From: an uncultured Candidatus Saccharibacteria bacterium
GTDB taxonomy: Bacteria; Patescibacteriota; Minisyncoccia; UBA6257; 2-01-FULL-56-20
Direction of reading: 5' to 3'
DNA: 64,000 nucleotides
Assembly (NCBI GenBank): GCA_964365185.1
Contig: CAYIOP010000001.1
Span: forward strand, 180,579 to 244,578
Position numbers and translations under genes: made by a program. The notes under the pieces are model-generated. The model did no database searches and had not been told where the DNA came from. It saw nothing but the letters and a program-made list of their open reading frames with translations. This document shows, in pieces, positions 6,394 through 54,703 of the stretch (its first letter is position 1; each line of letters opens with the position of its first letter).

Positions 6394-6469
6394 TGGGCGG
6401 GTCCGGCAGGAGTCGAACCTGCAGTTCTGGTTTTGGAGACCAGTGGTTTGCCATTAACCGACGGACCCG
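6394..6469 (-). tRNA. tRNA-Trp (anticodon CCA)
   Basis: Hand-folded cloverleaf with acceptor CGGGTCC/GGACCCG, anticodon loop CU-CCA-AA, T-loop GGTTCGACTCC and an encoded CCA. Confidence 0.85.
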
Positions 6470-6514
6470 TTTTGGAGACCCGCCATAGGCGGGCAGGCCT
6501 CGCTAATTATCACT

Positions 6515-6546
6515 TTCCTCCGGAGGAGGATCCGCCTTTGGCGGAA
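6515..6546 (+). repeat. Dispersed triple-palindrome repeat, copy A (TCCTCCGGAGGAGGATCCGCCTTTGGCGGAA)
   Basis: One of 5 near-identical copies in this window (see findings). Confidence 0.7.
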
Positions 6547-6609
6547 ACTAAGCTCCCCTATCCATGCGCATGTAACATGTATCACGCAACATGTAACAAG
6601 AGAATTTTA

Positions 6610-6651
6610 CTATTTTCTGCTCTCCTTATGTAGGGTGTGTTTTCTACACCC
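6610..6651 (-). other. Degenerate tandem duplicate of the rpmG 3' end (encodes ...[13 protein letters not shown])
   Basis: Reverse-complement translation matches the last 12 codons of rpmG, with many synonymous differences. It lies ~65 nt downstream of the real stop. Confidence 0.5.
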
Positions 6652-6713
6652 CCTCGACTCATTTCATTCGCTCGGGGCAAGCAATAGTTTACCCAGAGAT
6701 TGAAGTTGTATTT

Positions 6714-6881
6714 CTACTTTTTACTTTCCTTATGTAGGGTATGCTTGCGGCACCAGCTACAATACTTTTTGAGTTCTATTTTTTTCTCAACTTTCTTTTT
6801 GTTTTTATCGGCATAAATAGCCCGTTTGCACGTGGCGCATCTTAAACGTATTAATCTTTCGGCGCGTTTGATTTTGGCCAT
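6714..6881 (-). CDS. rpmG: 50S ribosomal protein L33 (zinc-ribbon form)
   Basis: Hand translation gives [55 protein letters not shown], with CxxC...CxxC. It is missing from the ORF track (55 aa). It sits upstream of tRNA-Trp, as in many bacteria. Confidence 0.8.
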
Positions 6882-6979
6882 GGTAAATCATGAAACATGT
6901 AGCATGTAACATGTAGCCAATATAGTAATCCAAAAATCGAAAGGAGTCAATTTGGGGGTTAAATTCTGTGTTTCTTTAT

Positions 6980-53401: not shown

Positions 53402-53653
53402 AAATCCCGCCCAGATATCCGGCCTTTCGCCAGTCCTAAATTAAAAACTTAGGTTGGGAACTCACTTTTAGCGAGCTGGATAACCAACAAGCCAGAAGTC
53501 AAGTTATCCCCTAATTAATTATTTGATCCGGAATCTTAGGCGGGATTCCTAATTCTATTATAGCACTAATTTTTTAAAAATTTGGAAAACTCTGTGGAAA
53601 AAAAACCGAGCAACTAGCTTTAATTTAAGGAGGGGGTTCTTATCCTCTCTGGC

Positions 53654-54085
53654 CTAACTAACTGATTTTGAATCAAGCTTACGCTTCAAGTAAATTAAAC
53701 CTAAAGAAGCTGCGGTGACGCTGCCTAAAAGATCTAAGAAAAGATCGAAAAGAGTATCAGGAAGAACCAGTGGGTTTGGCGCGAAATTTAGGGGGTGTCT
53801 TTTTAATAGATAGACATCGGCTAAATATTCGTAGAATTCCCAAAGCACGCCCACTAAAGCAACGAACCCTAAAATAATAATCAATTTTGTGAAAAAATGG
53901 GTGTTGTCTCCAAAAATATGATTTTTAACAAAGGCAAAGTAAATAAAAAAAAGAGCTACCCAAACACCCCCCGAAAAATGCAGGAGATCGTCGAGATACC
54001 AGATAGAATCATACCAATCGAAATATCCGGCAATAATATGAACAACTGCTATTACAAAGAACAAGATCAAAATCAGTCGTTTCAT
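53654..54085 (-). CDS. Hypothetical polytopic membrane protein
   Basis: 143 aa with 4 hydrophobic helices. No recognisable motif. Confidence 0.4.
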   Translation of the reverse strand: MKRLILILFFVIAVVHIIAGYFDWYDSIWYLDDLLHFSGGVWVALFFIYFAFVKNHIFGDNTHFFTKLIIILGFVALVGVLWEFYEYLADVYLLKRHPLNFAPNPLVLPDTLFDLFLDLLGSVTAASLGLIYLKRKLDSKSVS

Positions 54086-54107
54086 GAGTAAATTGTGGAG
54101 AAAAAAA

Positions 54108-54192
54108 CTACCGCTTCTTCCATTGTGGGTCGTCCGCTAGGACTCCTTCAAAACCCTCGGTTTTGAATAATTTCCTACTCGGGAAACCGACG
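54108..54192 (-). other. Degenerate tandem duplicate of the rpsI 3' end (encodes ...VGFPSRKLFKTEGFEGVLADDPQWKKR*)
   Basis: Aligns with the rpsI C-terminus SGFPSGRKKKYGLKKARRAPQWKKR* at ~60-65% nucleotide identity. It lies ~30 nt downstream of the real stop. Confidence 0.5.
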
Positions 54193-54226
54193 TTTTCCCG
54201 ACCCCTTTCCTCCGCAATGCGAAAAA

Positions 54227-54703
54227 CTAACGTTTTTTCCATTGCGGTGCCCGCCTGGCCTTTTTCAAACCGTATTTTTTTCTTTCTACCGCTCGGGAAT
54301 CCCGAGTAAGAAATCCTAGCCCTCGTAATCTTTTTTTGAAATCAGAATTTAAATTTACCAGAGCTCGAGAGAGACCGTGACGAACAGCTTCAGCTTGAGC
54401 CTTAAGGCCACCTCCATGAATATTCACGGTGATATGAAATTTTTCTTCAAGTTTAAGATTAGCAATGGGAGACAACGCCATTTCCTGTAATTCTCCCGGC
54501 TTGAAGTATTCAGAAATCTTTTTGTCGTTAATGCGGGCATCACCGCGACCGCTCATGATTCTTACTCGAGCGATAGCTGTTTTACGCCGGCCAACCCCTT
54601 CAAAATATCGTCCATCAGAAGAACTGGTTGGTTCTTTTTTTTCGGCTTTATTCTGATCTTCATCAGCAGAAATTTTGCTTTTTCTAATCATATTATTCTT
54701 CAA
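54227..54703 (-). CDS. rpsI: 30S ribosomal protein S9 (with ~35-aa N-terminal extension)
   Basis: C-terminal GRRKTAIARV ... KARRAPQWKKR. Confidence 0.85.
   Translation of the reverse strand: MKNNMIRKSKISADEDQNKAEKKEPTSSSDGRYFEGVGRRKTAIARVRIMSGRGDARINDKKISEYFKPGELQEMALSPIANLKLEEKFHITVNIHGGGLKAQAEAVRHGLSRALVNLNSDFKKRLRGLGFLTRDSRAVERKKYGLKKARRAPQWKKR

What the first reader, a model, noticed from the sequence alone, without database searches (positions are those of the whole stretch)
54100..54265. Second case of a diverged tandem duplication of an r-protein gene 3' end (rpsI), with the real stop codon inside a hairpin
About 30 nt downstream of the rpsI stop lies a ~85-nt segment that aligns with the last ~27 codons of rpsI. 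The copy encodes VGFPSRKLFKTEGFEGVLADDPQWKKR*, against the real SGFPSGRKKKYGLKKARRAPQWKKR*. The real stop is embedded in the hairpin CCGCAATGG-AAAAAACGTTAGTTTTTC-GCATTGCGG. Together with rpmG this makes two independent instances in 64 kb. That suggests a recurrent process: slipped-strand or gene-conversion events, or remnants of displaced native alleles. A regulatory structure is an alternative.
Basis: seen in the sequence. Interest (0 to 1): 0.5.

Follow-up and report, generated by a model that had tools for sequence, protein, structure and literature searches.

The report
Structured mobile-like insert behind rpsI
The apparent second copy of the S9 gene's end marks a roughly 120-base non-coding, folded element that belongs to a large unannotated family, seen here in Patescibacteria genomes and in metagenomes, which sits at the ends of tRNA and housekeeping genes and is bracketed by a repeat of the gene end.

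Summary
The last 7 codons of rpsI, the stop and a T-run (26 nt, 22/26 identical) recur 119 nt downstream, and the real stop lies in a 16-bp hairpin. The rest of the claimed 27-codon "copy" is not S9-derived. It is the conserved core of a structured element.

The same core follows rpsI in a Paceibacteria MAG whose S9 is 52% identical. The three closest rpsI loci (64-77%) lack it. An exact-pattern scan found more than 119 metagenome stretches, and 108 copies match a covariance model.

The anatomy is: gene end (X1), spacer, an arm complementary to the gene end (x'), a four-way-junction core (P2, P3, P4), then a detached gene-end copy (X2). Covariation is strong. There are no Rfam, phage, plasmid or IMG/VR matches.

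Of 111 copies, 62% follow tRNA 3' ends. Others sit at rpsI, rplK, typA, and probable ftsZ and hppA termini. In some the element is antisense to the gene.

Differences between X1 and X2 in coding cases are mostly synonymous (33 vs 9).

Best reading (confidence 0.55): a non-autonomous, horizontally spreading insertion element that brings a replacement gene end and leaves the displaced native end. The mobility mechanism is inferred.

The parts
54227..54703 (-). rpsI (ribosomal protein S9), 158-aa ORF. A 154-aa version is in the protein database as P0002. The stop TAG is at 54227-54229.
   Evidence: PF00380, and all 120 best homologues end in PQW.KR.
54222..54247 (-). X1: the gene-attached copy of the repeat (CCG CAA TGG AAA AAA CGT TAG + TTTTT). 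Its last 6 nt overlap the x' arm.
   Evidence: (family D1).
54212..54227 (-). x' arm (GTTTTTCGCATTGCGG), complementary to the rpsI end. It forms the hairpin that encloses the stop codon, with the loop GTTA at 54228-54231. It can alternatively pair with X2 as helix P1.
   Evidence: (I5).
54129..54210 (-). Conserved core of the element. Parts: J1/2 GGAAAGGGG 54202-54210; P2 hairpin 54179-54201; J2/3 54168-54178; P3 hairpin 54147-54167; P4 hairpin 54132-54143; 3' end GAC 54129-54131.
   Evidence: Covariance model hit of 58.1 bits, E 1.6e-13, the only copy in the window. Alignments A1, A3 and A4. Covariation. Fold.
54103..54128 (-). X2: the detached copy of the gene end (CCA CAA TGG AAG AAG CGG TAG + TTTTT). 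All 4 differences within the 7 codons are synonymous. This is probably the displaced native rpsI end, directly followed by the native intergenic DNA.
54108..54242 (-). 44-aa ORF in the -1 frame that runs through the element (P0001 in the database). Judged to be a spurious gene call.
   Evidence: Its only database match is itself. Openness of a reading frame across this purine-rich core is therefore weak evidence for a gene. Substitutions follow base pairing, not codons.
53654..54085 (-). Downstream DUF2238 membrane-protein gene. It is the conserved neighbour of rpsI with or without the element.

Best explanation
Window 54103-54227 is one copy of a widespread, unannotated family of small non-coding structured elements, found here in two Patescibacteria genomes and in groundwater, sediment and soil metagenomes.

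Anatomy, read on the element strand:
- X1, the end of the host gene.
- A short spacer. Here it is only a 4-nt loop. Elsewhere it is often a terminator-like hairpin.
- An 8-22 nt arm (x') complementary to the host gene end.
- A roughly 80-100 nt conserved core that folds into three hairpins around a junction.
- X2, a second, detached copy of the gene end.

Most likely history (inferred): the element entered rpsI at the conserved PQW codons. It brought its own replacement for the last 7 codons and the stop, and pushed the native gene end about 119 nt downstream, where it persists as X2. S9 is therefore unchanged.

Most likely mechanism (inferred, not shown): non-autonomous site-specific integration or homing. 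The constant folded core would be the module recognised by a trans-acting enzyme. The variable arm x', with or without X2, would specify the target by base pairing, as RNA or as folded single-stranded DNA.

Shown: family membership, the insertion status, the structure, and the coding-type divergence of the two copies.
For: 1. The same architecture and core follow rpsI in L008, where S9 is only 52% identical. There the last 23-26 nt of rpsI are repeated almost perfectly.
2. The three closest rpsI loci (S9 77, 73 and 64% identical) have rpsI followed directly by the DUF2238 gene, 0-70 nt away, with no element. Relatives of L008 (66 and 62%) also lack it. This gives a patchy, insertion-like distribution.
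Of these, 108 copies match the covariance model at E<=1e-8.
4. Structure is under selection. 97.7% of cells are paired. All 8 P3 pairs show double changes (208 cells in the whole structure, 0 of 500 shuffles reach this). Slid controls give 32-67% paired. One junction-to-loop pair covaries: C-G 39, U-A 22, other 11.
5. One constant core serves many targets. 69 of 111 copies lie 130 nt or less behind tRNA 3' ends of 17 amino-acid specificities. Others sit at the rpsI stop, the rplK start and the typA start, and at the C-terminal coding ends of two genes I infer to be hppA and ftsZ.
6. The direct repeat runs from a conserved site to the gene terminus in nearly all cases.
7. The arm matches its own host gene end: -21.5 kcal/mol against -12.9 for mismatched partners.
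8. In 10 coding cases X1 and X2 differ at 33 positions in synonymous codons and 9 in non-synonymous codons. In the window the count is 4 to 0. The detached copy is therefore an orthologous gene end that evolved under selection.
9. In L120 and L098 the element is antisense to the adjacent operon, so its polarity follows the target site and not transcription.
10. Nested and tandem copies exist in L093, L149, L166 and L183.
11. 3' ends of tRNA genes, rpsI and rpmG are documented integration targets of tyrosine integrases (PMC4701971).
Against: - No recombinase, transposase or reverse transcriptase lies in or next to the elements. The only mildly recurrent neighbour is a LAGLIDADG-like protein, in 8 of about 120 loci and not adjacent.
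- No excised form, empty and filled alleles within one population, or near-identical copies at different sites of one genome were seen. Three same-strain contigs all carry the element.
- Some copies have the core alone, exactly filling a tRNA-tRNA spacer with no arm and no repeat (L105, L124, L134).
- The tertiary covariation looks like a functional RNA fold.
- There are no matches in phage, plasmid or IMG/VR collections.
- Which of X1 and X2 is native cannot be decided from the window.
Confidence: 0.55

Rival explanations
1. A host-serving, cis-acting structured RNA, such as a 3'-UTR or intergenic processing, stability or switch element. The conserved core would be an aptamer- or ribozyme-like four-way junction. 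Its closing helix P1 (x':X2) would compete with an alternative helix (X1:x') that sequesters the end of the upstream RNA. On this view X1 and X2 look alike only because both must pair with x'.
For: - The conserved core has a variable, covarying closing helix, and one tertiary pair covaries.
- The isolated x'-core-X2 RNA folds as a four-way junction at -38.6 kcal/mol. The region has fold z-scores of -4.2 and -4.1 in two hosts.
- No promoter or terminator lies between rpsI and the next gene, so the element is probably co-transcribed.
- In the L119 and L170 variants the closing helix covers the Shine-Dalgarno sequence and start codon of the next gene.
- Core-only copies occur between tRNAs.
Against: - The repeats extend far beyond what pairs with x'. 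In L008, 23-26 nt are repeated but only 12 pair. Other repeats reach 50-90 nt.
- The repeats keep coding capacity, with synonymous differences. Pairing alone does not require that.
- In L120 and L098 the core is antisense to the operon it sits in.
- The gene contexts are unrelated to one another.
- The element is absent from the closest relatives, whose gene order is identical.
- G.U pairs make up only about 1% of pairs.
Confidence: 0.22
2. An ordinary relic of a larger integrative element or of a foreign-allele replacement (homology-facilitated illegitimate recombination). The internal genes would have been deleted, leaving attL/attR-like gene-end repeats. The conserved core would be leftover element-end DNA with no role of its own.
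For: - rpsI, rpmG and tRNA 3' ends are classic integrase targets.
- The differences between the copies are mostly synonymous.
- The differences cluster at the core-proximal edge of X2, as in an attR hybrid.
Against: - More than 100 independent copies keep the same roughly 100-nt unit with compensatory changes in its helices. Decaying scars would not do that.
- One core accompanies 17 tRNA amino-acid specificities and several protein genes. That would require many different integrases to share one arm sequence.
- No copy with internal genes was found. The L096 interval holds only two uncharacterised ORFs.
Confidence: 0.12
3. A local tandem duplication of the rpsI 3' end by replication slippage or gene conversion, followed by divergence.
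For: Two direct copies lie 119 nt apart. A marginal extended similarity exists in the window only (p about 0.014).
Against: - The intervening sequence is not rpsI-derived. It is shared with elements beside unrelated genes.
- A pseudogene copy diverging neutrally should not differ only at synonymous sites.
Confidence: 0.03
4. A real small gene, or a -1 frameshift extension of S9. The 44-aa ORF starts inside the PQW codons, follows an A6 run and ends in the same PQWKKR*.
For: The ORF is open in the window and in L008 (44 and 46 aa, 39% identity). The sequence GGAAAAAAC precedes the stop.
Against: - There is no homologue among 5.8 billion proteins other than the ORF itself.
- L008 has no slippery run.
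- The same core beside tRNAs cannot be coding.
- Variation is compensatory in helices.
Confidence: 0.02

Closest known systems
Integrative elements (ICE, IME, prophage) whose tyrosine integrases target the 3' end of tRNA genes, rpsI or rpmG, and their gene-less derivatives (CIME-like elements)
   Same: - Insertion into the end of a conserved gene.
- The element supplies a replacement gene end.
- The insert is bracketed by a direct repeat (attL/attR-like) that runs from the crossover site to the gene terminus.
- The same target genes are used, and 5' ends of genes are also used (PMC4701971).
   Different: - There is no integrase or any other gene, and the whole insert is about 100-250 nt.
- One conserved folded core serves many different targets.
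- An internal arm is complementary to the target.
- Helices are maintained by compensatory changes.
CTXphi-type IMEX integration. Two inverted dif-like sites about 90 bp apart fold in the single-stranded genome into a hairpin attP, which is recombined by host XerCD.
   Same: The topology after integration matches: one functional site, then cargo, then an inverted site, then about 90 nt, then a non-functional direct site. These correspond to X1, the spacer, x', the core and X2. No recombinase is encoded by the element (PMC3089051).
   Different: - The targets are not dif, and they vary from copy to copy.
- The cargo is only 4-80 nt.
- The roughly 90-nt segment is conserved and structured here.
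- A single-stranded DNA stage and a role for Xer are untested.
Guide-bearing transposable elements. IS200/IS605 uses internal guide nucleotides next to subterminal hairpins. IS110/IS1111 uses bridge or seek RNAs.
   Same: A constant folded scaffold lies next to short variable segments that match the insertion site. The order 'target, spacer, guide, hairpins' resembles an IS608 left end. This comparison with IS608 rests on my own knowledge.
   Different: - Pairing here is 8-22 nt, against 4-9 nt.
- The repeats here are long gene-end repeats, not 0-2 nt duplications.
- No TnpA or DEDD recombinase is nearby.
- The element does not have two separate target and donor loops.
MITEs and other small bacterial repeats (REP/BIME, Correia, ERIC)
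   Same: Small, non-coding and multi-copy. They lie at gene ends, fold into hairpins, and show nested and tandem copies.
   Different: - The terminal inverted repeats (x'/X2) differ in every copy and match the local target.
- The flanking repeat is 14-92 nt and gene-end-specific, not a fixed short duplication.
Junction-type structured RNAs such as riboswitch aptamers and small ribozymes, and the group I intron logic in which one guide pairs with both exons (P1/P10)
   Same: - A conserved junction core with a variable closing helix, and tertiary covariation.
- One arm can pair with two similar sequences, X1 and X2.
   Different: - No Rfam family matches.
- The core is too small for a group I intron.
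- Placement on either strand relative to the host gene is incompatible with splicing or a single cis-regulatory role.

Membership tests
Integrative element with att duplication (tyrosine-integrase type) | Inserted DNA is flanked by direct repeats that include the end of a conserved target gene, and the gene stays intact. | tested here: met
   X1 and X2 are 22/26 identical. S9 keeps the family C-terminus PQWKKR.
Integrative element with att duplication (tyrosine-integrase type) | An unoccupied site exists in related genomes. | tested here: met
   In L081, L084 and L087, rpsI is followed by the DUF2238 gene with no element. The covariance model finds none in 15 other rpsI loci.
Integrative element with att duplication (tyrosine-integrase type) | An integrase or recombinase gene lies inside the element. 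| tested here: not met
   The insert is about 95-120 nt. Its only ORF is the 44-aa frame, which has no homologues. No enriched recombinase appears in 120 loci.
CTXphi-like IMEX (single-stranded hairpin attP) | Two copies of the target-like site lie in inverted orientation about 90 nt apart, plus a third, functional site after integration. | tested here: met
   x' and X2 are separated by the 82-nt core, and X1 is functional. The family median from core start to X2 is 99 nt.
CTXphi-like IMEX (single-stranded hairpin attP) | The target is the chromosomal dif site and recombination is by XerCD on single-stranded DNA. | not testable with these tools
   The targets here are tRNA and protein-gene ends, not dif. 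The enzyme and the strandedness are unknown.
MITE | Family-wide conserved terminal inverted repeats and a short target-site duplication of fixed length. | tested here: not met
   The arms differ per copy and match the local gene. Flanking repeats span 14-92 nt.
IS200/IS605-derived non-autonomous element | Subterminal hairpins, insertion 3' of a 4-5 nt target without duplication, and a TnpA (Y1) gene in the genome. | tested here: inconclusive
   Hairpins are present. However, long repeats flank the insert and no Y1 transposase was seen in the loci. The rest of each genome could not be searched.
IS110/IS1111 bridge or seek RNA | A non-coding RNA with separate target- and donor-binding loops next to a DEDD recombinase gene, and a 2-nt core duplication. 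| tested here: not met
   There is no adjacent recombinase. The element has a single arm pair and long repeats.
Any Rfam 15 family, including group I/II introns, small ribozymes, riboswitches and r-protein leaders | A covariance-model match at or near the gathering score. | tested here: not met
   The best hit in the window is the ylbH leader at 13 bits against a gathering score of 50. Only tRNAs were found in 18 loci. Nothing was found on the canonical copy in L093.
Cis-regulatory RNA (riboswitch-like) | A constant position and strand relative to a coherent set of regulated genes. | tested here: not met
   Copies lie behind tRNAs, at CDS 3' ends and antisense upstream of rplK and typA.
Protein-coding small ORF | Homologues with a codon-type substitution pattern. 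| tested here: not met
   There are no homologues. Variation is compensatory in helices.

The most novel reading that the evidence does not exclude
The family is a programmable, nucleic-acid-guided miniature mobile element. A constant folded scaffold, as RNA or single-stranded DNA, would be recognised by an as yet unidentified trans-acting recombinase or would itself be catalytic. An exchangeable 8-22 nt arm would direct insertion into the ends of conserved genes, with the element carrying a replacement gene end. That would be a new guided-integration system native to the reduced genomes of Patescibacteria.
Probability: 0.25. Interest if true: 0.9.

Novelty: new variant of a known kind. Interest (0 to 1): 0.65.

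Why it matters
- It changes the interpretation of a local oddity. The duplicated gene tail is one copy of a large structured family that current annotation does not record. There is no Rfam family, and the element is instead called as a 44-aa hypothetical protein.
- The family links three things that are usually separate: gene-end-restoring integration, a conserved folded core maintained by compensatory changes, and a copy-specific arm complementary to the target.
- If the arm specifies the target, this would be a compact guided-insertion system. It would also help explain how small elements persist in highly reduced genomes.
- If the core is a host RNA instead, it is a widespread new RNA fold associated with tRNA operons.
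- In either case, partial tRNA and gene-end copies in these genomes should be read as footprints of this element.

Tried and rejected
- **Slippage or tandem duplication.** Rejected. The spacer is a foreign conserved core.
- **The 27-codon alignment.** Only 7 codons are a true repeat.
- **Small protein or -1 frameshift.** Rejected. There are no homologues, and L008 has no slippery site.
- **Known RNA families.** None matched.
- **Group I intron or splicing.** Rejected. There is no model match, the core is too small, and the element occurs on either strand relative to the host gene. The Patescibacteria tRNA-intron paper concerns anticodon-loop introns.
- **Diversity-generating retroelement.** Rejected by reading the sequence. 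The mismatches between the copies are not adenine-specific, and S9 is not a variable protein.
- **TIGR-Tas, IS110 and tmRNA resemblances.** Considered from memory and from paper titles, and not supported by the anatomy. ARAGORN found no tmRNA.
- **Associated protein.** Clustering 861 ORFs from 120 loci gave no adjacent enriched family.
- **Phage, plasmid and IMG/VR origin.** No hits.
- **Strand of function from wobble pairs.** Inconclusive: 12 G:T against 8 A:C in the X1:x' duplexes, and about 1% G.U in the core.
- **rpmG spacer as a full family member.** The covariance model does not hit it and it does not fold significantly (z -1.2). Only a 16-22 nt P4-like piece is shared.

Full report
**What is at the coordinates**

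rpsI lies on the minus strand at 54227-54703 and ends ...ERKKYGLKKARRAPQWKKR*. All 120 best S9 homologues end in PQW.KR.

The last 7 codons, the stop and five T's (X1, 54222-54247) recur at 54103-54128 (X2). They are 22/26 identical with start-to-start spacing of 119 nt.

The stop codon lies in a hairpin. The 5' arm is the PQWKK codons. The 3' arm (x', 54212-54227) follows a 4-nt loop (I5). The hairpin energy is -17.8 kcal/mol.

Its 27-codon alignment is not:
- Its 'real' peptide is read out of frame.
- Similarity upstream of the 26-nt repeat is marginal (p about 0.014).
- That similarity vanishes in cross-comparisons (p 0.17-0.96).
- In a blind scan of 262 ORFs against their own downstream DNA, rpsI is only about 10th. 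rpmG is first.

**The comparative result that changes the picture**

Among 15 Patescibacteria rpsI loci from species-representative genomes, one (L008, a Paceibacteria MAG) repeats its rpsI end about 100 nt downstream, near-perfectly over 23-26 nt.

The DNA between the copies aligns with the window's spacer at 78% column identity. It shares GGAAAGGGGTCGGG(G)AAACG...TTTCCC...GGAAAT...AAAACCGA.GGGT. The S9 proteins of the two genomes are only 52% identical.

The three closest S9 relatives found in 5.8 billion proteins are 77, 73 and 64% identical. They have the same gene order (rplQ-rplM-rpsI-DUF2238-VTT) but no element. The gap from the rpsI stop to the next gene is 0-70 nt, against 141 nt in the window.

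Closer relatives of L008 (66 and 62%) also lack it. Three contigs of the same strain from Hainich groundwater carry an identical copy.

The segment is therefore an insertion with a patchy distribution.

**A large family**

A covariance model was built from 65 cores. It finds 108 copies at E<=1e-8 in 100 sources. It finds exactly one in the window, at 54137-54210, 58 bits.

Nothing matches in Rfam 15, in phage or plasmid collections or in IMG/VR.

Host loci span 27-58% GC, while the core stays near 55%.

**Anatomy**

Reading on the element strand:
- Gene body.
- X1.
- A spacer of 0-115 nt, often a terminator-like hairpin. In the window it is only the loop.
- x', 8-22 nt, complementary to the start of X1.
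- The core: GGAAAGGGG; the P2 hairpin; G-Y-GGAAG; the P3 hairpin; GGAG; the P4 hairpin, which varies from a GCGAAGC mini-hairpin to about 30 nt; then GACG.
- X2.
- Native flank.

The direct repeat has a median of 19 nt and a range of 14-92 nt.

The arm x' pairs specifically with its own host's X1 (-21.5 against -12.9 kcal/mol for mismatched partners) and less well with X2 (-15.2 against -10.3).

The isolated x'-core-X2 of the window folds as a four-way junction at -38.6 kcal/mol. The whole region has fold z-scores of -4.2 in the window and -4.1 in L008.

On 108 copies:
- 97.7% of cells are paired.
- All 8 P3 pairs show changes on both sides (208 double-change cells over the whole structure, 0 of 500 shuffles reach this).
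- Slid controls are 32-67% paired.
- G.U pairs make up only about 1%.

One junction nucleotide covaries with the fourth P3-loop nucleotide: C-G 39, U-A 22, other 11. These sequences are related to one another, so that count is suggestive rather than a probability.

**Targets**

Of 111 evaluable copies:
- 69 lie 130 nt or less behind a tRNA 3' end on the same strand. These tRNAs cover 17 amino-acid specificities.
- 5 lie directly 5' of a tRNA.
- 37 lie elsewhere.

In the tRNA cases the repeat starts in the T-loop and runs to the tRNA end. In some it continues through the terminator.

The others include:
- The rpsI stop (window, L008, L132, L189; L162 carries the core after rpsI but has no detectable detached copy).
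- The rplK start (L110, L120, L206).
- The typA start at the AHVD motif (L098, L178).
- A pyrophosphatase stop (L121).
- An FtsZ-like C-terminus (L146), where x' itself encodes a substitute tail.

The protein names for L098, L120, L121 and L146 are my inference from their sequences.

In L120 the element is antisense between nusG and rplK. In L098 it is antisense upstream of typA. Its polarity therefore follows the target site and gene body, not transcription. That is hard to reconcile with a purely cis-acting RNA or with splicing.

Tandem and nested copies occur in L149, L166, L183 and L093. Core-only copies fill tRNA-tRNA spacers in L105, L124 and L134.

**The two gene-end copies are orthologous-type sequences**

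In 10 coding cases, X1 and X2 differ at 33 positions in synonymous codons and 9 in non-synonymous codons. The counts include window rpsI 4:0, window rpmG 4:1, L121 4:0, L206 8:4 and L178 8:1.

The non-synonymous differences cluster at the core-proximal edge of X2.

A pseudogene copy drifting after a local duplication would not look like this. It fits one copy having come from another lineage's gene, either as an element-borne replacement end or, equivalently, with the other copy being a displaced native allele.

**Interpretation**

Shown:
- The window feature is a member of a conserved structured family.
- It is an insertion relative to close relatives.
- Its repeat is a gene-end footprint that preserves S9.

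Inferred:
- The element spreads horizontally into conserved sites and carries a replacement gene end. This parallels integrase-driven elements, which are documented to use tRNA, rpsI and rpmG 3' ends and some gene 5' ends (PMC4701971).
- It encodes nothing, yet one constant core accompanies many targets with a copy-specific complementary arm. The most economical mechanism is therefore recognition of the folded core by a trans factor, with target choice made by base pairing.
- The final topology is a functional site, then cargo, then an inverted site, then about 90 nt, then a non-functional site. It matches what CTXphi leaves after its single-stranded hairpin attP is recombined by host XerCD (PMC3089051). 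Nothing here tests single-strandedness or Xer.

**Weaknesses**

- No enzyme is known. Only LAGLIDADG-like proteins recur, in 8 of about 120 loci and not adjacent.
- There is no evidence of current movement.
- Core-only copies and the tertiary covariation fit a functional RNA.
- I therefore keep a host-RNA reading at about 0.2.

**rpmG**

The last 30 nt recur about 100 nt downstream, start to start, and it scores top of the scan.

Its spacer is not a full family member. The covariance model gives no hit there and the fold z-score is -1.2.

It does contain GAGCGAATGAAATGAG(T)CGAG just before the detached copy. That matches the P4 region of two family members (L102, L144) and occurs nowhere else in 210 loci.

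A 5'-truncated relic is plausible but unproven.

**Literature**

Five full-text searches found no description of this family. Absence from that library does not prove that it is unpublished.

Noticed in passing
window 6611-6743 (minus strand), downstream of rpmG (6714-6881): The last 30 nt of rpmG (CATACCCTACATAAGGAAAGTAAAAAGTAG) recur about 100 nt downstream (start to start; roughly 73 nt after the stop) with 5 differences, 4 of them synonymous. The spacer carries a 16-mer (GAGCGAATGAAATGAG, 6658-6673) identical to the P4 region of two family members. The covariance model does not hit it and it does not fold significantly. It may be a truncated relic of the same element family.
   Followed up: partly
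window about 6560-6600 and about 6890-6915 (minus strand): TGTTACATG / ACATGTTACATG-type short repeats flank the rpmG unit on both sides, upstream of its start and downstream of the detached copy. Their meaning is unknown.
   Followed up: no
window about 6475-6560 (minus strand), between the rpmG repeat and tRNA-Trp (6394-6469): A cluster of short GC-rich palindromes (CCGCCAAAGGCGG, CCTCCGGAGG, CCCGCCTATGGCGGG). Similar mini-hairpins (for example CCTGCCGGCAGG types) are inserted into loops of family members in L096, L101, L116 and L174. This suggests a second family of tiny mobile hairpins.
   Followed up: no
window 53404-53552, convergent intergenic region between the VTT-domain gene and the DUF2238 gene: A roughly 150-nt region closed by GAATCCCGCC/GGCGGGATTC folds far better than shuffles (minus strand -56.7 kcal/mol, z -4.9; plus strand z -3.4). 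It has no Rfam match. Relatives keep a roughly 230-250 nt gap at the same place. It may be an unannotated RNA.
   Followed up: partly
window 54108-54242 (minus strand): The 44-aa ORF through the element is deposited as a predicted protein (P0001; NCBI and ENA). It has no homologue other than itself and is probably a false gene call caused by the element.
   Followed up: yes
L146:1230-1420: The element sits inside the 3' end of an FtsZ-like CDS (...WDIPTFL). The arm complementary to the target, together with the loop, encodes a new tail RRRKK* in place of the native RRKKK*, which survives after the detached copy.
   Followed up: partly
L119:640-830 and L170 (minus strand, core at about 1361-1416): A variant of the core lies in 5' leaders, before a secE-like gene and a response-regulator gene. 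Its closing helix covers GAGGAGATTCAT-ATG, that is, the ribosome-binding site and start codon.
   Followed up: no
L093:1100-1300; L149:1196-1656; L166; L183: Nested copies (one core inside the P3 region of another) and tandem copies (three units in L149) of the element occur behind tRNA genes.
   Followed up: partly
L091/L204, L094, L095, L152, L163, L185, L195: Proteins of 144-270 aa with an N-terminal helix-turn-helix and LY(L/W)(G/A)EG...NSDP motifs (LAGLIDADG-like, by eye) recur near tRNA arrays that carry the element. They are not adjacent to it.
   Followed up: partly
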